Sequence record: OQ834936
Reading direction: 5' to 3' (one strand)
Length of the DNA stretch: 64,000 nt
Origin: Shigella phage Henu12
The position numbers and the translations under genes were made by a program. Below, one piece after another: positions 12,924 to 18,500 of this stretch. Position 1 is the first letter of the stretch, and each line of letters starts with the position of its first letter. The notes beneath the pieces were generated by a model that ran no database searches, was not told the DNA's origin, and was given only the letters and a program-made list of their open reading frames with translations.

Positions 12924-13221
12924 AAGTTACAAATGTTACAGCCATAGCTGATTTACATTTCTTTGGGTCTACAATGTGGTAGATAACTGAACAGTTTCCT
13001 GTTCCGTCTGGTACTGGTTTTGTCCAAGTACGTTCAATATTTGGCTCTCCAAACTCTTTATAGAATCCGTTGGAATAGTGGTTTACCATCTCAATAGCAA
13101 GTGCATCTGGAACGTGACCACGTATCATATACATCTCACAACCATTTCCACCATCACTCACTAGTGGTATAATATCCCATTGTTCTCTAGCCATGATAAG
13201 TTGCCTCATAAACTGTCTCAA
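12916..13221 (-). CDS. hypothetical protein (101 aa)
   Basis: ORF track. Confidence 0.45.
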   Translation of the reverse strand: MRQFMRQLIMAREQWDIIPLVSDGGNGCEMYMIRGHVPDALAIEMVNHYSNGFYKEFGEPNIERTWTKPVPDGTGNCSVIYHIVDPKKCKSAMAVTFVTFD

Positions 13222-13702
13222 GCTTCAACAAGAGAGATATTGCCAGAAATGCGTATTCCCTGTCAAGCATTGGTGGCATATTATTTATAAGATATGCTTC
13301 CTGTTCTTCCCAAGTCATCTTAGGAGCTTCTGGAAGCTTCTCTCCCTGCTTCTGGTTATCTTCTTGAGTCTGGATAAACCAGTTCGAGCAATGGTGCTCT
13401 CCACCTTTTGTCACGGGCTTATGGTGGCCTAATGTGAAAGCTTTCTTTCCAGAATATCTACAAAGCTTATTAAGAGTTGCAATAGTGTTCTTGACAACAC
13501 AGTATTCATAGAGGTTGTCAATAGTATAGTGAGGGTAGTACTGGAACAAGGCACTATCACGAAACTTACCACGGTTCCAAAGTACCATGTGGTTAGAATT
13601 TGAAGGGTCATACTGATGTGAATCGATGAACTCTTGACGCTCATCAAAATCAAGACGAAGAACAGACATTGCAGCAGCACGTTTCAGATTTGAATGGTAC
13701 AT
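13187..13702 (-). CDS. HNH endonuclease-like protein
   Basis: Motif GHHKPVTKGGEHHCSNW (His-His...Asn...His). Confidence 0.55.
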   Translation of the reverse strand: MYHSNLKRAAAMSVLRLDFDERQEFIDSHQYDPSNSNHMVLWNRGKFRDSALFQYYPHYTIDNLYEYCVVKNTIATLNKLCRYSGKKAFTLGHHKPVTKGGEHHCSNWFIQTQEDNQKQGEKLPEAPKMTWEEQEAYLINNMPPMLDREYAFLAISLLLKLETVYEATYHG

Positions 13703-13711
13703 GATTTCTCC

Positions 13712-13742
13712 AAAATAAAAAGGGAACCTTTTACAGTTCCCT
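13712..13742 (-). terminator. intrinsic terminator AGGGAAC-loop-GUUCCCU plus U-tract
   Basis: Hairpin followed by UUUUUAUUUU on minus RNA, then GGAG RBS of the HNH gene. Confidence 0.6.
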
Positions 13743-13754
13743 AATCATATACGT

Positions 13755-14066
13755 TTACTGAGCTATTTTCAAGACTTTTAAGAAACCTTCCTCACCAATT
13801 GCATCATAAACGTTTTCAGTTGGCTTGATAAGGTTATTCAAGCATACAATTTTCTTACGCTTCTTGTCATAAGTAAGCTTCAGTTGTTTCAACTCTTTGT
13901 CATCTTCAGGGTGCTCATTGTACATCTTCACAGCTTCTTTAAAGCTAATGTAGCCACCACCTAGAGTAAGGAAACCTGTACCACAATAGTGGGAGTTGTG
14001 TTTATCAGCCATAAACTGGCACAGGATAGAAATCTGAATTTTACGAGTGTTATAAACCTTTTCCAT
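13755..14066 (-). CDS. hypothetical protein (103 aa)
   Basis: ORF track. Confidence 0.5.
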   Translation of the reverse strand: MEKVYNTRKIQISILCQFMADKHNSHYCGTGFLTLGGGYISFKEAVKMYNEHPEDDKELKQLKLTYDKKRKKIVCLNNLIKPTENVYDAIGEEGFLKVLKIAQ

Positions 14067-14077
14067 TTTAATAATCC

Positions 14078-14335
14078 TTACTTGCTACGTTTACGGTTGC
14101 GAGCTTTTTTAGCTGCACGTTTAATTGCTGCTGCACCAGTTTGGCGATGAGCTTGCTTCTTACCACCTTTACCACGTCCAACATGGATGTAAGGTTGCTG
14201 TTCAATCTGGCTTGCAAGAACCTGTGCAACTGCTGAAGCGTCTACTCCAACCTGCTTACCAGTCATTGAAACGATAGCTGCTGCTTTTGCCAGAGCTGCT
14301 AAGAAACCTGCTTTCATGTTTGAAAAAATTCCCAT
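14078..14335 (-). CDS. hypothetical protein with basic C-terminus (85 aa)
   Basis: ORF track; Lys/Arg-rich tail. Confidence 0.5.
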   Translation of the reverse strand: MGIFSNMKAGFLAALAKAAAIVSMTGKQVGVDASAVAQVLASQIEQQPYIHVGRGKGGKKQAHRQTGAAAIKRAAKKARNRKRSK

Positions 14336-14350
14336 TTTAATATCTCTCTG

Positions 14351-14671
14351 TTAAAGTTTAATACAGAACTGCTTCAGTTCTTCTTCTGTTACTGCGACAA
14401 CTTTATCATCAACTCTCAAGTTTGTCGCGTAAAAGTTTGAGAAATGTGCTTTGTATTTTACTTTAAATACTCCGGCGTCCTCAATCTGCTTCAAGGCTGT
14501 CATTCCAGTGGAATCAAATAGGCTTTTTGTGTAGTTTCTCCACTCTTCAAGAGTTTCTGGATTGACTTTATAGCTACCAAACAGTGACATGTTACAAGCT
14601 ACCATAACAATCTCACCACGTTTGAATCCACCATTACTCTGTACGCCATTGACAGTCGCCTTGCCAGCCAT
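14351..14671 (-). CDS. hypothetical protein (about 106 aa)
   Basis: Start set at internal Met (MAGKATV) preceded by GGAGAAAAG RBS; track ORF extends to 14752 over nrdG. Confidence 0.45.
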   Translation of the reverse strand: MAGKATVNGVQSNGGFKRGEIVMVACNMSLFGSYKVNPETLEEWRNYTKSLFDSTGMTALKQIEDAGVFKVKYKAHFSNFYATNLRVDDKVVAVTEEELKQFCIKL

Positions 14672-15125
14672 ATTCTTTTCTCCACAAGTTTTGGTTATCT
14701 GAACCACGATATGGTTTGTTCGTTGGTTTAGAAGCATCATACTTACCATCAATCACTACGTCAACATATTTCATCACTTCTTTGTTAATTTTTTCATGAA
14801 GCTGAAATCCTGTCCACAGCCAGATAGTCTTGTCTGGATAGATAGACTTAACCTTCTGACAAATCTTGGTGACTTCCTCAATATTACGGTCATCAAGTGG
14901 TTCTCCACCAAGAATTGACAGACCACTTATAGAGTCATCTTCCAAGAGTCTTATAATGCCATAAAGGTTTGCATAAGTAAACTCTTTACCAGCATTAAAC
15001 TTCCAAGATTCCTTGTTAAAACAACCTTCACAGTGATGTTTGCAGCCAGCTACAAAAAGACTGACACGAGCACCTTCACCGTTCGCTGTATCGAATTTTC
15101 GTATTTCCATGTAGTTCATTAGCAC
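14634..15125 (-). CDS. nrdG: anaerobic ribonucleotide reductase activating protein (radical SAM)
   Basis: CxxxCxxC cluster (CKHHCEGC), about 160 aa, adjacent to nrdD. Confidence 0.8.
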   Translation of the reverse strand: MLMNYMEIRKFDTANGEGARVSLFVAGCKHHCEGCFNKESWKFNAGKEFTYANLYGIIRLLEDDSISGLSILGGEPLDDRNIEEVTKICQKVKSIYPDKTIWLWTGFQLHEKINKEVMKYVDVVIDGKYDASKPTNKPYRGSDNQNLWRKEYGWQGDCQWRTE

Positions 15126-15511
15126 ACCTCAACTTCAAAACTTACATGTTTTGTGACGTACTCTTCACAATGCTCTTTAATAAATTCCTGAAGCAGTTCA
15201 TCTTCCTGAGCACGAGTCATCAAAGCAACATACTTTGGATTTATTGTTTGCTGAATACTGTAGAAAGACATGTCACCAATTTCTGTACCATATGAATCTG
15301 ACCATGTTCCAGTTACTACTAAGACTTTATCACTCAACTCCGTAGGGAGTTCAATGTCATCATCCTTTGCGTCATCAATAACAGAGTCAGTTATTAAAAG
15401 AGTACATGCTATGTAAAACTCTGAGTATTTTCTGTGAGTTTTCTCACAAGAGCCACACTCTAAAGCATAGTCTTTAAGCCAGTTCATTTGATTTTTATTT
15501 AATTTAGTCAT
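15119..15511 (-). CDS. hypothetical protein (130 aa)
   Basis: ORF track. Confidence 0.5.
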   Translation of the reverse strand: MTKLNKNQMNWLKDYALECGSCEKTHRKYSEFYIACTLLITDSVIDDAKDDDIELPTELSDKVLVVTGTWSDSYGTEIGDMSFYSIQQTINPKYVALMTRAQEDELLQEFIKEHCEEYVTKHVSFEVEVC

Positions 15512-15608
15512 TTCTCTTTCCTTTCAATGTGTTGTATAAAAGCCCTAACAAGAAACCTAGTAAGACAGAGCCTACTAAGGTGACTAACAAGAATGTCTTA
15601 ATCATCAT
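15504..15608 (-). CDS. small hydrophobic single-TM peptide (34 aa, MMIKTFLLVTLVGSVLLGFLLGLLYNTLKGKRND)
   Basis: Hand translation; start overlaps the upstream TGA (TGATG) and stop overlaps the downstream ATG, so it is translationally coupled on both sides. Confidence 0.4.
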   Translation of the reverse strand: MMIKTFLLVTLVGSVLLGFLLGLLYNTLKGKRND

Positions 15609-15865
15609 CAATACCACCATATTGTTTGGTTGTTATCACAAACATACAGGTACTCTGTCCCGATTTGTGGGACGATGATTGTAGTGTTGCCTGATATGAC
15701 TGTCATATAGTATATGTATTCCCTGCTTTGTGATGTTTGCTGACAATTGTTTGCATTCATCCAAATTCTTGTTTGATAAGTGTCATATATTAGTAACCCT
15801 ACTAGTATTGCTAATGCAATTCCAAGGAACCATAACCAGAATTTAGGCCAAAAGTCATAACTCAT
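15608..15865 (-). CDS. hypothetical membrane protein
   Basis: Hydrophobic segment FWLWFLGIALAILVGLLIY; start set at Met10 (track start 15892). Confidence 0.45.
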   Translation of the reverse strand: MSYDFWPKFWLWFLGIALAILVGLLIYDTYQTRIWMNANNCQQTSQSREYIYYMTVISGNTTIIVPQIGTEYLYVCDNNQTIWWY

Positions 15866-16044
15866 ACTGTGACCTCTTGATAAACTTTCCAAACATTCTT
15901 TGTAAACTCTTCATCGTACCAAACACCGTTAGCAGCTTGCCAAGACACAGTGTATTTGTCTTCAGACACATGCTTGAGAACAGCCTCAAAAGTTCGATTA
16001 GATTTTCCTGCAACGAAAAGATAGACCTTACCAATTTCCAGCAT
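15862..16044 (-). CDS. hypothetical protein (60 aa)
   Basis: ORF track; preferred over the overlapping 15855-16058 frame on composition. Confidence 0.4.
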   Translation of the reverse strand: MLEIGKVYLFVAGKSNRTFEAVLKHVSEDKYTVSWQAANGVWYDEEFTKNVWKVYQEVTV

Positions 16045-16108
16045 TGTGGTATCTTCAATAAAAAAGGTGATGCAAGCCTATCAAGACCTACACCACCTTG
16101 TCAACTAC

Positions 16109-18249
16109 TTACATAGATTTTCTATCCTGAATCTCAGCAATTTTTGCATCGTTCATTCTGGAAGTGCCTTTAATCTTAGTCCAGCCAAGATAACCACAAA
16201 CACGGTTAATCACAGAGATATCATGTGAGTTGCACTTAGGACATAATTCAACATCTGCACTTGGACGGTGACCACAATTTTCACAGATTGCTAAATCAAA
16301 GTTAACACCTTGGTAGAAACCTTTACCCATACCTCTTGTCACACAAGCTCTGATAGCTTTATGGTTCTCTGGGTTAGCAATACGAACATATTGGATATGA
16401 CCACCATTACAAGAGTGGAAGAAAGGTTCTTCTAGGTCTTGCTTTTCAAATGGTGTAATATCTGCACCAACATTCATATGGAAGCTGTTTGTGAAGTATT
16501 CTTTATCAGAAACACCTTTAACAACCCCGAACATATTTCTAAACTGCTTCAATTGCGTACCACAAAGACTCTCAGCAGGTGTACCATAAAGTGCATACAG
16601 GAAGCCGTCTTCCTGCTTAAACTGCTCCAGCTTGCTATTCAGATAGCTTAAAACCTTGCTTGCAATATCACCATCAGACTCATGCAATCTTCTACCTTGA
16701 GCAAGCACTGTTAATTCATCTAATGCGGTCACACCAAAAGATGCTGTAAAAGACTTAACAGTGTCCCAACCAATCTTATCAGTTGGCTTCTTATGACCTT
16801 TATACAATCCACCTTGTGTAAATGCTAAAGGGTTAGAACTTGCTGGCATATTAGCAATCATCTCATAACGCTTCTTATGGAAGCTTCGAATCATTTCAAG
16901 GTATTTGTCAAGCTCTTTCCAGAAGTCTAAATCATTCTCTTCAGAGTACTTGTAAATCATCGGCAGATTAAGAGATACTGCACCAATGTTTGCTCTACCT
17001 GTGTAGAACTCTTTACCTTCCTCATCATAGTAAGGAGATAAGAAAGCCCTACAACCCATTGGAGAGATAACTGCACCTGAACGTTCAAAAGCTTCTGCAA
17101 CAGAACCATGACCAGACACACTTAAGAAGTCTGGATACATAGCTTTAGAGCAACACTCAATAGCCTTATCATAAAGCTGCCCCTGCCAAGGGTCTAACAT
17201 ATGTCTTGTTTCATCATAGATATAAACCAGTTTAGGGAACACAACAGGCTTCTTAGATTTACCTTGACCATTCATCCTAACATCTAGAATAGTCTTAGCA
17301 ACCATAAATTGCAAACGGTTATCTTCACTAGCCATGTCTGGTTCAAGTAAACCAAATGTTAATGTTGTGAATGCAAAGTCACCACGACTGCAAGGAACAG
17401 TGTTCAGTTTCATTTCCAAAGATTGGAATCCTTGAGTTAGTTCAATCTGGAGTTGCTCTTTAGCGTAGTGGTATACTTCCTTGCTTGGAATATTATATTG
17501 CTTTGCTTTTTCCAGATGATACTCAAAAGACTTCTTAGCATATGGCACAAGAACCTTGTCAATCTCTGGGATGGTGAATCCTCCAAACTGCTGTGCAGTT
17601 GCTGAAAGTACAACATCACCGATAACCTGTAAAGCTGAGAGTACAGACTTAGGTTCACAGTACTCAATGCCGGACATTTCAAAGCCACCTTTCAGGACAC
17701 TTCCAATGTCAAACAAGCAGCAGTTAATACCCCCGAAGATTAAATCTCTTAAGTCATGGATATAAATAAATCCATCCTCAATAGCTCTTGTTTCTTCTGG
17801 TGTTAAGTGGTACTGCTTAAAGATTTCTTTTGTCAGATACCCACGAATGATTGAACCTTTTGTAGAGATTAAGCTGCTGTCAAAGTTAGCATTCTCACGG
17901 TCACCTAAGAAGAGTGTGTCTTTAGTTTTCTGGTAAAGTTCATCCCAATTCTGTGCAACCTCTTTACGATAGTTTCTGTAGGTTGAGTATGACTCATAGA
18001 TTTCATGGTTTACCTCTGCCAGAGTTCCCTCTACAATACTGTGAACATCATCTACAGAGATGAGCATAGCATTCTGATTAGTTGCTCTGACAAGCAATCT
18101 CATAAAGGCTGATTCAAGAGCGTGAATAACTTCTAGTGGTAACTCTTTGTAGCCAACTCTATTAGCTGACTTGGTAACTGCTTCGACGATTTTATTTACA
18201 TTTGGTTTTTCCAGTGAACCGTCTTTCTTAATAATTTGTACTTTAACCA
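16109..18249 (-). CDS. nrdD: anaerobic ribonucleoside-triphosphate reductase
   Basis: C-terminal glycyl-radical motif RVCGYLG; start set at MVKVQIIKKDG with AGGAG RBS (track start 18319). Confidence 0.9.
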
Positions 18250-18263
18250 TTCTGACTCCTAAT

Positions 18264-18290
18264 GCAAAAAAGGTCTCCGAAGAGACCCTT
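18264..18290 (-). terminator. intrinsic terminator GGGUCUC-UUCG-GAGACC plus U6
   Basis: Hairpin and U-tract immediately upstream of the nrdD RBS. Confidence 0.7.
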
Positions 18291-18299
18291 ATATTAATT

Positions 18300-18500
18300 C
18301 TACTTAGAAAACTTTTCAATAAGCTTTTTAAGCTTTCCGCTCAAATCATGTTTGATATCTAATATCTCAAAGATAACCCATACTAACATAGCTCCAAACA
18401 GAGCACCTTGTTTTAAATCAGTAAATAGGCTAGTAACCATGAATGCCAGAGCAATCATCGGAGCATCTTCAACAAAACCATCCCATAAACGTTTAAGCAT
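18300..18500 (-). CDS. small membrane protein (66 aa)
   Basis: ORF track; two hydrophobic segments. Confidence 0.45.
   Translation of the reverse strand: MLKRLWDGFVEDAPMIALAFMVTSLFTDLKQGALFGAMLVWVIFEILDIKHDLSGKLKKLIEKFSK

What the first reader, a model, noticed from the sequence alone, without database searches (positions are those of the whole stretch)
15504..15608. Unannotated 34-codon hydrophobic peptide gene translationally coupled on both sides
Seen: the minus-strand ORF encodes MMIKTFLLVTLVGSVLLGFLLGLLYNTLKGKRND, one predicted TM helix with a basic tail. Its ATG overlaps the upstream stop (TGATG) and its TAA overlaps the downstream ATG, a hallmark of real coupled genes. It is below the 60-aa track cutoff. 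Inference: a small membrane peptide; function unknown.
Basis: seen in the sequence. Interest (0 to 1): 0.5.

Follow-up and report, generated by a model that had tools for sequence, protein, structure and literature searches.

The report
Conserved small phage membrane peptide gene
The short open reading frame is a real, evolutionarily conserved gene for a 33-34-residue single-pass membrane peptide of Felix O1-like phages; gene callers often miss it, but other records already list it as a "hypothetical membrane protein", and its function is untested.

Summary
The window is a Mooglevirus (Ounavirinae, 99.7% to Shigella phage Sf13). The ORF fills the only gap in a run of five overlapping genes between nrdD and nrdG.

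It is a real gene:
- The frame is intact in 43 of 46 related loci. The other three have replaced the gene rather than broken it.
- In the transmembrane (TM) core, substitutions are almost all synonymous (12 synonymous vs 0 non-synonymous between phages HP1 and S.Kent 1-2-1).
- Distant lineages keep an invariant L-G-F-x-L-G-L-x-Y block containing a small-xxx-G-xxx-G motif.

- The conserved start is the second ATG (15605, 33 aa).
- The stop does not touch the downstream ATG; the two ORFs overlap by 8 nt (ATGACTAA).
- Upstream coupling is not universal.

The gene is already annotated in ESh20, HP1 and KMM4. Its Felix O1 homologue is Felix01p220, "membrane protein" (PHROG 20082). No homologue was found outside the E. 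coli/Salmonella/Shigella/Citrobacter Ounavirinae (genera Felixounavirus, Mooglevirus, Suspvirus).

Function is untested. My best inference is an accessory inner-membrane micropeptide (N-terminus out, C-terminus in) that works by helix-helix packing. This is an ordinary finding of low novelty.

The parts
15504..15605 (-). Peptide coding sequence from the conserved start: MIKTFLLVTLVGSVLLGFLLGLLYNTLKGKRND plus TAA (33 aa).
   Evidence: sequence, ORF. (only this ATG is shared by all lineages). (purifying selection in this frame).
15613..15618 (-). Shine-Dalgarno-like GGTGGT, 7 nt before ATG 15605 and 4 nt before ATG 15608. It lies inside the Trp-Trp-Tyr codons at the end of the upstream gene.
   Evidence: The same GGTGGT with 5-7 nt spacing occurs in the Michonne-type and ESh21-type junctions, and AGGA 8 nt upstream occurs in Moogle and phiSUSP1.
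15608..15610 (-). TGA stop of the upstream 85-aa gene.
15537..15593 (-). Transmembrane core, residues 5-23 (FLLVTLVGSVLLGFLLGLL).
   Evidence: additive Hessa free energy -2.9 kcal/mol, mean Kyte-Doolittle 2.62; 0 non-synonymous vs 8-12 synonymous differences among Moogle-type phages.
15534..15560 (-). Near-invariant block L16-G17-F18-x-L20-G21-L22-x-Y24. Together with S13 (codon 15567-15569) it forms a small-xxx-G-xxx-G (glycine-zipper-like) motif.
   Evidence: G17, F18, L20, G21 and L22 are invariant in 10 divergent family members. Position 13 is S or A. Mean column entropy is 0.44 bits for columns 15-24 vs 1.02 for columns 5-14.
15507..15533 (-). C-terminal tail NTLKGKRND (net charge +2, three K/R), predicted cytoplasmic. 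Its codons also carry the AGGA Shine-Dalgarno sequence (15519-15522) and the ATG of the next gene.
   Evidence: A net-positive tail is kept with different sequences in the other lineages.
15504..15511 (-). 8-nt overlap ATGACTAA between the end of the peptide ORF and the start of the 130-aa gene.
   Evidence: An overlap with the next gene is kept in every lineage seen: 4 nt (ATGA) in L042 and L044, 17 nt in ESh21 and L041, 25 nt with the 66-aa gene in the Felix O1 type.
15608..15865 (-). Upstream neighbour: 85-aa protein (MSYDFW...), one TM helix plus a small beta domain with two Cys (PHROG 8826). Its ATG overlaps the stop of the 60-aa gene (ATGA).
   Evidence: AlphaFold2 model, pLDDT 87; only uncharacterised phage proteins match.
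15119..15511 (-). Downstream neighbour: soluble 130-aa protein (PHROG 4382, homologue of Felix01p222). Its TAA overlaps the nrdG ATG by 1 nt (TAATG).
16064..16099 (-). Intrinsic terminator hairpin after nrdD. In Moogle, phiSUSP1 and the Felix O1 type, the peptide gene follows this hairpin directly, or follows a homing endonuclease gene inserted after it.
   Evidence: 16-bp stem plus T-run; annotated terminator in Michonne.

Best explanation
This is a real protein-coding micro-gene. It is the Mooglevirus member of the Felix01p220 / PHROG 20082 "membrane protein" family of E. coli, Salmonella, Shigella and Citrobacter Ounavirinae.

Expression (inferred from the anatomy): it is translated within the tightly overlapped run 60aa-85aa-peptide-130aa-nrdG. 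The most likely start is ATG 15605, using the GGTGGT Shine-Dalgarno-like site. Its own termination sits 5 nt past the start of the next gene, so ribosomes are handed on.

Product (inferred from sequence rules): a 33-aa peptide that inserts as one helix in the inner membrane. The four-residue N-terminus faces the periplasm. The K/R-rich tail faces the cytoplasm, by the positive-inside rule.

Mechanism (inferred, not shown): the near-invariant inner-leaflet half of the helix (S13...L16-G17-F18-x-L20-G21-L22-x-Y24, a small-xxx-G-xxx-G surface) packs tightly against other TM helices. The partner would be the peptide itself and/or a larger host inner-membrane protein. The peptide would then act as a non-lytic accessory modulator of the host membrane, made with the early/middle nucleotide-metabolism genes. 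That is how bacterial regulatory TM micropeptides work.

Shown here: the ORF, frame conservation, purifying selection, motif conservation, synteny and family restriction. Inferred: translation, membrane insertion and topology, helix-packing mechanism, accessory role. My confidence is about 0.9 for "real membrane-peptide gene" and about 0.35 for the specific modulator-by-packing mechanism.
For: - The frame is intact in 43 of 46 related loci (some loci are duplicate copies of the same phage). The other three (nataliec type) have a different gene at that place, not a broken frame.
- Nei-Gojobori counts in the 19 TM codons: HP1 vs S.Kent 1-2-1, 12 synonymous and 0 non-synonymous (binomial P=4e-7); window vs HP1, 8 and 0; L042 vs L044, 14.8 and 6.2 (P=3e-5).
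- Over the whole ORF, omega is about 0.06-0.09. The other five frames have stops or mostly non-synonymous change.
- Lineages with only about 72% DNA identity keep the peptide: ESh21/KMM2, L042, L043, L044, EcSzw-2 and the Felix O1 type.
- G17, F18, L20, G21 and L22 are invariant, and position 13 is S or A.
- The hydrophobic 19-mer has a favourable insertion energy, and the C-flank is net positive in all four variants scored.
- PHROG 20082 matches the window peptide at E=2e-4, the intermediate L043 variant at 4e-5 and the Felix O1 type at 2e-40.
- The position between nrdD and nrdG is the same in all lineages, and the ORF always overlaps the next start codon.
- Independent gene callers annotated it in ESh20, HP1, KMM4, Felix O1, VpaE1 and UAB_Phi87 (PMC4837284).
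- No RNA explanation was found: no Rfam match and a folding z-score of +0.92.
- Accessory role: nataliec-type Felixounaviruses lack the gene. In the CRISPRi-ART screen of phage SUSP1, the flanking genes agp066-agp073 all score "Not Fit" (PMC11879866).
Against: - There is no direct evidence of translation, membrane location or any phenotype. No ribosome profiling or proteomics for this phage group was found.
- The SUSP1 screen did not target the peptide, because it is not annotated there.
- Conservation is not confined to one helical face (conservation moment 0.16). A simple one-face heterodimer is therefore not specifically indicated.
- small-xxx-G motifs are common in TM helices.
- One isolate (wV8, L014) carries G21E in the invariant glycine. 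Either the motif is dispensable in that phage, or this is a defect or a sequencing error.
- The tail sequence is partly constrained by the Shine-Dalgarno site and start codon of the next gene.
Confidence: 0.75

Rival explanations
1. Membrane-permeabilising peptide. The glycine-zipper helix assembles into a homo-oligomeric pinhole that depolarises the inner membrane, like the single remaining TM helix of a pinholin or a type I toxin such as Fst, Ldr or TisB. It would be used for lysis timing, host shut-off or exclusion.
For: - The architecture fits: a short N-terminus, one TM helix and a charged C-terminal tail in 31-41 aa.
- An invariant small-xxx-G-xxx-G motif is present, and conservation spreads over more than one helical face, as expected if each helix contacts two neighbours in a ring.
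- Glycine-zipper surfaces in channel-forming helices and in pinholin TMD2 are established knowledge (recalled, not tested here).
Against: - The gene sits in the nrdD-nrdG nucleotide-metabolism operon. It is translationally chained to nrdG, whose function needs an energised, living host. No endolysin, holin or spanin gene is nearby.
- No antisense promoter or terminator, no Rfam antitoxin RNA, and no Pfam or NCBIfam toxin or holin family match were found.
- The TM has no charged or strongly polar lining residues apart from Ser and Thr.
Confidence: 0.15
2. Dedicated subunit of a small phage membrane complex. The peptide pairs in the membrane with the neighbouring phage membrane proteins: the 85-aa TM-plus-beta protein in Mooglevirus, or the 66-aa two-TM protein in Felixounavirus.
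For: - It is always embedded in a cassette of small membrane-protein genes and is translationally coupled to them.
- The cassette is mosaic. One chimaeric protein joins the N-terminus of the 66-aa protein to the C-terminus of the 85-aa protein (P0012).
Against: - The peptide occurs without the 85-aa protein (Moogle, phiSUSP1, Felix O1 type) and without the 66-aa protein (Mooglevirus). No phage membrane partner is constant.
- The apparent "fusion" in nataliec-type phages is not a fused peptide. EcSzw-2 has both the two-TM version and a separate peptide, and the extra TM helices resemble each other rather than the peptide.
Confidence: 0.1
3. Coupling device only. The ORF matters because its translation delivers ribosomes to the buried start of the next gene, and the amino-acid sequence is incidental. 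In the limit, it is a chance ORF in a spacer.
For: - The start codon and Shine-Dalgarno site of the next gene always lie inside the 3' end of the ORF.
- ORFs of this length are common by chance.
Against: - Selection acts on the amino-acid sequence: 0 non-synonymous vs 8-12 synonymous changes in the TM core, and an invariant GFxLGL block across lineages whose synonymous sites are saturated.
- No RNA structure sequesters the downstream start (z=+0.92).
- Extreme hydrophobicity is not needed for coupling, and only 5 of 1,427 short segments reach it.
Confidence: 0.05

Closest known systems
Felix01p220 (ORF118) "membrane protein" of Salmonella phage Felix O1 and its Felixounavirus orthologues (PHROG 20082; e.g. 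VpaE1 ORF118, UAB_Phi87 ORF75, AYO145A)
   Same: - Same place in the genome: after nrdD and its terminator, before the Felix01p222 homologue and nrdG.
- Same architecture, and an identical core GS(V/T)LLGFxLGLxY.
- It also overlaps the next gene's start.
- Intermediate sequences (L043, EcSzw-2) bridge the two types.
   Different: - The N-terminus (MIKTF vs M(LD)MAESII) and the tail (KGKRND vs RDKLKCLKYQKR) differ.
- The next gene is the 130-aa protein here, rather than the 66-aa membrane protein.
- The PHROG match of the window peptide itself is weak (E=2e-4).
- Felix-type records annotate 54-55 aa, but the extra 13 N-terminal residues are a translation of the nrdD terminator hairpin and are not frame-conserved.
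Bacterial regulatory TM micropeptides (AcrZ, KdpF, MgtS, CydX class)
   Same: They work alike in principle: 30-50 aa, one TM helix, no enzymatic domain, and action by packing against a larger membrane protein. This resemblance is recalled from the literature and is a lead only.
   Different: There is no sequence relationship (no Pfam, NCBIfam or PDB hit). The gene is phage-encoded, and its partner is unknown.
Pinholin TMD2 and type I toxin peptides (S21-68, Fst/Ldr, TisB, Hok)
   Same: One TM helix with a charged C-terminal tail, and a small-residue (glycine-zipper-like) surface.
   Different: It is not in a lysis cassette. It has no antisense RNA or independent regulation, and no family match. 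It is co-translated with nucleotide-metabolism genes.

Membership tests
PHROG 20082 / Felix01p220 small membrane protein family | Significant match to the family profile | tested here: met
   Window peptide E=2.2e-4 (22 bits) over the conserved core. The L043 intermediate scores 4e-5 and the Felix O1 type 1e-28 to 2e-40. A profile built from window, Felix-type and Moogle-type sequences retrieved only these clusters from 1.84 billion proteins.
PHROG 20082 / Felix01p220 small membrane protein family | Conserved position (nrdD ... peptide ... Felix01p222 homologue ... nrdG) and overlap with the next gene's start | tested here: met
PHROG 20082 / Felix01p220 small membrane protein family | Single TM helix with the core motif G-S-x-x-L-G-F-x-L-G-L-x-Y | tested here: met
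Holin / pinholin | Encoded in a lysis cassette beside an endolysin or spanin gene | tested here: not met
   The neighbours are nrdD, nrdG and three hypothetical proteins. No lysis gene lies within 13000-18500, and none is annotated in the homologous stretches of Michonne, KPS64 or Sf17.
Holin / pinholin | At least one TM helix and a charged cytoplasmic C-terminus | tested here: met
Holin / pinholin | Lethal membrane hole formation on expression | not testable with these tools
   This needs an induction experiment.
Type I toxin peptides (Hok, Fst/Ldr, TisB, Ibs, ShoB) | Cis- or trans-encoded antisense RNA antitoxin with its own promoter and terminator, and an independently regulated toxin mRNA | tested here: not met
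   No promoter-like or terminator-like pair was found on the opposite strand, and site counts did not exceed shuffled controls. There is no Rfam match. The ORF is translationally chained inside an operon.
Type I toxin peptides (Hok, Fst/Ldr, TisB, Ibs, ShoB) | Match to a toxin family profile | tested here: not met
   Pfam gave only sub-threshold DUF6789 and LapA_dom hits. NCBIfam and PADLOC gave none.
Bacterial lipoprotein / cleaved signal peptide | Lipobox L-(A/S/T)-(G/A)-C, or a signal-peptidase site followed by a mature domain | tested here: not met
   The window peptide has no Cys. The Cys positions in the Felix-type and ESh21-type peptides are not conserved and lack a lipobox context. Only 10 residues follow the TM helix.
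Regulatory TM micropeptides (AcrZ / KdpF / MgtS-like) | Physical association with a larger membrane protein | not testable with these tools
   Only the size and single-TM architecture are met. There is no sequence homology.

The most novel reading that the evidence does not exclude
The peptide is a phage-made glycine-zipper micropeptide with a specific host target in the inner membrane. Examples would be blocking a transporter or receptor, blocking DNA entry by superinfecting phage, or neutralising a membrane-acting defence effector. That would give the first function to a family carried by roughly 200 sequenced Felix O1-like therapeutic phages, and a rare example of a viral TM micropeptide regulator in bacteria.
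Probability: 0.15. Interest if true: 0.55.

Novelty: already known. Interest (0 to 1): 0.22.

Why it matters
- Annotation. The gene is missing from many records, including Sf13, Sf14, Sf17, Michonne, KPS64 and phiSUSP1, and from many Felixounavirus records in which nothing is annotated under the match. It is in the wrong frame in ESh21, and is probably over-extended at the N-terminus in Felix O1-type records.
- Screens. Genome-wide screens that rely on annotated genes, such as the CRISPRi-ART screen of SUSP1, never tested it.
- Biology. These phages are widely used for typing and therapy of Salmonella, Shigella and E. coli. A conserved membrane micropeptide is a reasonable candidate for an exclusion or host-takeover function.
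- Limits. Nothing here shows a new kind of system. It is one more small hypothetical membrane protein.

Tried and rejected
1. Fusion ("Rosetta stone") idea. Nataliec-type Felixounaviruses have a 127-aa two-TM protein where the peptide gene normally is. I considered that the peptide had fused to the 85-aa-type protein. I rejected this because EcSzw-2 has both a 112-aa two-TM version and a separate peptide. Also, the extra TM helices resemble each other, not the peptide, and lack the Gly motif.
2. RNA element. There is no Rfam hit at E<=1, and the RNA fold is no more stable than shuffles (z=+0.92).
3. Terminator-like hairpin inside the ORF (15579-15556). By eye it is not kept in the ESh21-type and is weaker in the Felix-type sequences. 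The number of such sites is within shuffle expectation.
4. Antisense ORF (+15529..15678, 49 aa). It is open in the Moogle type but has a stop in ESh21 and KMM2. It also fits the substitution pattern worse than the peptide frame in most comparisons: window vs HP1 gives 4 synonymous / 6 non-synonymous changes in the antisense frame against 8 / 2 in the peptide frame, although window vs S.Kent gives 7 / 3. It is a by-product.
5. tblastn with the peptide found only identical copies (E=0.6), so it was too insensitive. DNA searches and neighbour-anchored locus retrieval were used instead.
6. Remote homology. The word-seeded search of 5.8 billion proteins gave 5 clusters, all Felix-type or Moogle-type variants by sequence (one is named only as an unclassified Caudoviricetes metagenome sequence). 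The exhaustive HMMER scan of 1.84 billion representatives gave 2 clusters. Nothing outside this family was found. One call failed because the query was under 40 aa.
7. More distant Ounavirinae. Hafnia phage SarahDanielle and Pectobacterium phage Arno162 have no homologue in the nrdD-nrdG region.
8. Context from the neighbours. AlphaFold2 models of the 85-aa protein (pLDDT 87) and the 130-aa protein (pLDDT 89) matched only uncharacterised phage proteins (BFVD) or nothing significant (PDB).
9. Paralogues. None was found in the window.
10. Literature. No functional, ribosome-profiling or proteomic data were found for this gene.

Full report
**What is in the sequence**

The window is a Mooglevirus (Ounavirinae). 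The 341 bases around the finding are 99.7% identical to Shigella phage Sf13, and the wider region matches Citrobacter phages Michonne and Mordin at about 95%.

On the minus strand, five genes follow one another with overlapping stops and starts. The run begins after nrdD (16109-18319) and its intrinsic terminator (16064-16099).
- A 60-aa gene (15862-16044).
- An 85-aa membrane protein gene (ATG 15865, joined to the 60-aa gene by an ATGA overlap).
- The peptide ORF.
- A 130-aa gene (15119-15511).
- nrdG (ATG 15119, joined to the 130-aa gene by a TAATG overlap).

The upstream TGA (15610-15608) shares one base with that ATG.

The downstream junction was mis-described. The ATG of the 130-aa gene (15511-15509) lies 5' of the TAA, so the two ORFs overlap by 8 nt (ATGACTAA).

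Without the peptide ORF there would be a gap of about 96 nt, the only sizeable one in this overlapped run.

**Is it more than chance?**

Length alone is not evidence: 518 stop-to-stop segments of at least 42 codons occur in the window. Hydrophobicity is unusual. Only 5 of 1,427 short segments have a 19-mer this hydrophobic, and three of the other four were checked and lie off-frame inside long genes.

The decisive evidence is comparative. I assembled 46 related loci from GenBank phages, IMG/VR and Logan assemblies.
- 43 loci carry an intact ORF in this frame (some loci are duplicate copies of the same phage).
- The other three are nataliec-type Felixounaviruses with a different gene at that position, not a disrupted frame.
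- In the 19 transmembrane (TM) codons, HP1 and S.Kent 1-2-1 differ by 12 synonymous and 0 non-synonymous changes (P=4e-7). Window vs HP1 gives 8 and 0. L042 vs L044 gives 14.8 and 6.2.
- Over the whole ORF, omega is about 0.06-0.09. The other five frames contain stops or show mostly non-synonymous change.
- The open antisense frame acquires a stop in ESh21 and KMM2.
- Rfam finds nothing, and the RNA folds no better than shuffled sequence.

The region is therefore under selection as a protein.

**The start codon and the coupling**

Only the second ATG (15605) is shared by every lineage.
- Michonne, HP1, KMM4 and S.Kent 1-2-1 read ...W-R-M-I-K-T-F, with an ATGA stop/start overlap.
- ESh21 has TAA immediately followed by ATG.
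- Moogle and phiSUSP1 have no upstream gene and only this ATG.

A GGTGGT Shine-Dalgarno-like site lies 7 nt before ATG 15605 and 4 nt before ATG 15608. The product is therefore most likely 33 aa; 34 aa cannot be excluded for this window.

Upstream coupling is lineage-specific. Overlap with the start of the next gene is universal among the loci seen: 4, 8, 17 or 25 nt.

**The family**

The Felix O1-type homologue, M(LD)MAESIIGLFIGSVLLGFFLGLSYCELRDKLKCLKYQKR, sits at the same place, after the nrdD terminator.
- It is annotated in Felix O1 as Felix01p220, "membrane protein".
- It is also annotated in VpaE1 and in UAB_Phi87 as a 41-aa hypothetical membrane protein (PMC4837284).
- It defines PHROG 20082. 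That profile matches the Felix O1 type at 2e-40 and the window peptide at 2e-4.
- Intermediates link the two types: L043, MIADMLGLLISAILLGFVLGLLYNVLKGKKNDKTN, and EcSzw-2, MLINILGMFIGSVLLGFFLGLLYCDLRGKLKCLKSPKR.

The window's own peptide is annotated as a CDS in ESh20 (34 aa), and its 33-aa form in HP1 and KMM4. It is missing from Sf13, Sf17, Michonne, KPS64 and phiSUSP1. Many of the 149 Felix-type records that contain the DNA have nothing annotated there.

The family appears confined to this clade.
- A word-seeded search of 5.8 billion proteins found 5 clusters, all Felix-type or Moogle-type variants by sequence.
- An exhaustive HMMER scan of 1.84 billion representatives found 2 clusters.
- More distant Ounavirinae (Hafnia, Pectobacterium) lack it.
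- Pfam, NCBIfam, PADLOC and PDB sequence searches gave nothing significant.

**Anatomy of the peptide**

The layout is a four-residue N-terminus, a 19-residue hydrophobic helix with favourable insertion energy, and a C-terminal flank that is net positive in all four variants scored. By the positive-inside rule, the N-terminus faces out and the C-terminus faces in.

Across ten divergent members, G17, F18, L20, G21 and L22 are invariant. L16 and Y24 are nearly so, and position 13 is S or A. This gives a small-xxx-G-xxx-G (glycine-zipper-like) motif. Conservation is concentrated in the inner-leaflet half of the helix, with mean entropy 0.44 vs 1.02 bits, and is not confined to one face.

The tail codons also carry the Shine-Dalgarno site (AGGA 15522-15519) and the ATG of the next gene. 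The positive charge is nevertheless kept with unrelated sequences in other lineages.

**How it most likely works**

Shown: a conserved, selected coding frame for a very hydrophobic peptide with an invariant Gly-rich helix surface, chained into the nrdD-nrdG operon.

Inferred: it is translated by coupling, inserts into the inner membrane, and acts by tight helix-helix packing with itself and/or a larger membrane protein. It would be a dispensable accessory function.

I prefer a non-lytic modulator over a pore for three reasons.
- The gene is co-translated with nrdG and other metabolism genes that need an energised host.
- No lysis genes are nearby.
- No toxin-type regulation is visible.

Dispensability is suggested by its replacement in nataliec-type phages. 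It is also suggested by the "Not Fit" scores of all flanking genes in the SUSP1 CRISPRi-ART screen. That screen did not target the peptide, because it is unannotated there.

A dedicated partnership with the neighbouring phage membrane proteins is unlikely, because neither neighbour is constant. AlphaFold2 models of both neighbours gave no functional lead.

**Verdict**

The interpretation (a real small membrane peptide) is supported.

The gene is not new. It belongs to a catalogued family of hypothetical membrane proteins, and identical copies are annotated in other records. No function is known, and none can be established with these tools. Interest is low. The main practical value is as an annotation fix and as a candidate for a simple expression and knockout test.

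Noticed in passing
L006 (Shigella phage ESh21) 974-1078 vs 987-1097: The small CDS annotated by PHANOTATE in ESh21 (MVVLNDKRIFIDNTNRFDY...) is in a different frame from the conserved peptide (MIKEFLLITLIGSTTLGFCLGLLYTHFAGNKNDKTN). The annotated frame is probably wrong.
   Followed up: yes
L012-L033, L046 (Felixounavirus loci), about 45 nt upstream of MAESII: Felix01p220-type CDSs are annotated as 54-55 aa. The first 13 residues (MWVLIGLHHLFYW) are a translation of the nrdD terminator hairpin and T-run. T-run length differences shift that part out of frame in five loci. The real start is probably the internal Met (41 or 38 aa).
   Followed up: partly
L014 (IMG/VR copy of an 88,487-bp Felixounavirus, probably wV8): It carries G21E in the otherwise invariant GFxLG glycine (GFFLELSY). 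This is either a defective copy, a tolerated change or a sequencing error.
   Followed up: no
L021, L027, L038 (nataliec-type), L039 (EcSzw-2); P0012: The small membrane-protein cassette between nrdD and nrdG is highly mosaic. The beta-domain protein occurs in 85-aa one-TM, 112-aa two-TM and 127-aa two-TM versions. A 66/71-aa two-TM protein is present or absent. One phage (vB_SflM_004) has a chimaera of the 66-aa N-terminus and the 85-aa C-terminus.
   Followed up: partly
window 15119-15511 (130-aa protein): It has remote homologues (27-33% identity) in T7-like Klebsiella, E. coli, Shigella, Salmonella and Enterobacter podophages, in some next to the "HNS binding protein" gene. Several Ounavirinae records label it "tail tube protein", which looks like an annotation error given its place in the nrd operon. 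Its confident AlphaFold2 model has no significant PDB match.
   Followed up: partly
L011/L040 (phiSUSP1) 272-835; L005 (VpaE1) 3-539; L015, L019, L047: Homing (HNH/MobE-like) endonuclease genes are repeatedly inserted between nrdD and the peptide gene. In UAB_Phi87, nrdD itself is split by one (PMC4837284).
   Followed up: no
L043 1217-1504 vs 1410-1517: In one Logan contig, the upstream gene (homologue of a 68-aa protein in L044) lacks its usual stop. It is called as 95 aa, running across the whole peptide gene in another frame. This is probably an over-extended call.
   Followed up: no
window 15119-16044, minus strand: Five consecutive genes are linked by stop/start overlaps (ATGA, TGATG, ATGACTAA, TAATG). 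Whole-run translational coupling downstream of the nrdD terminator is therefore expected.
   Followed up: yes
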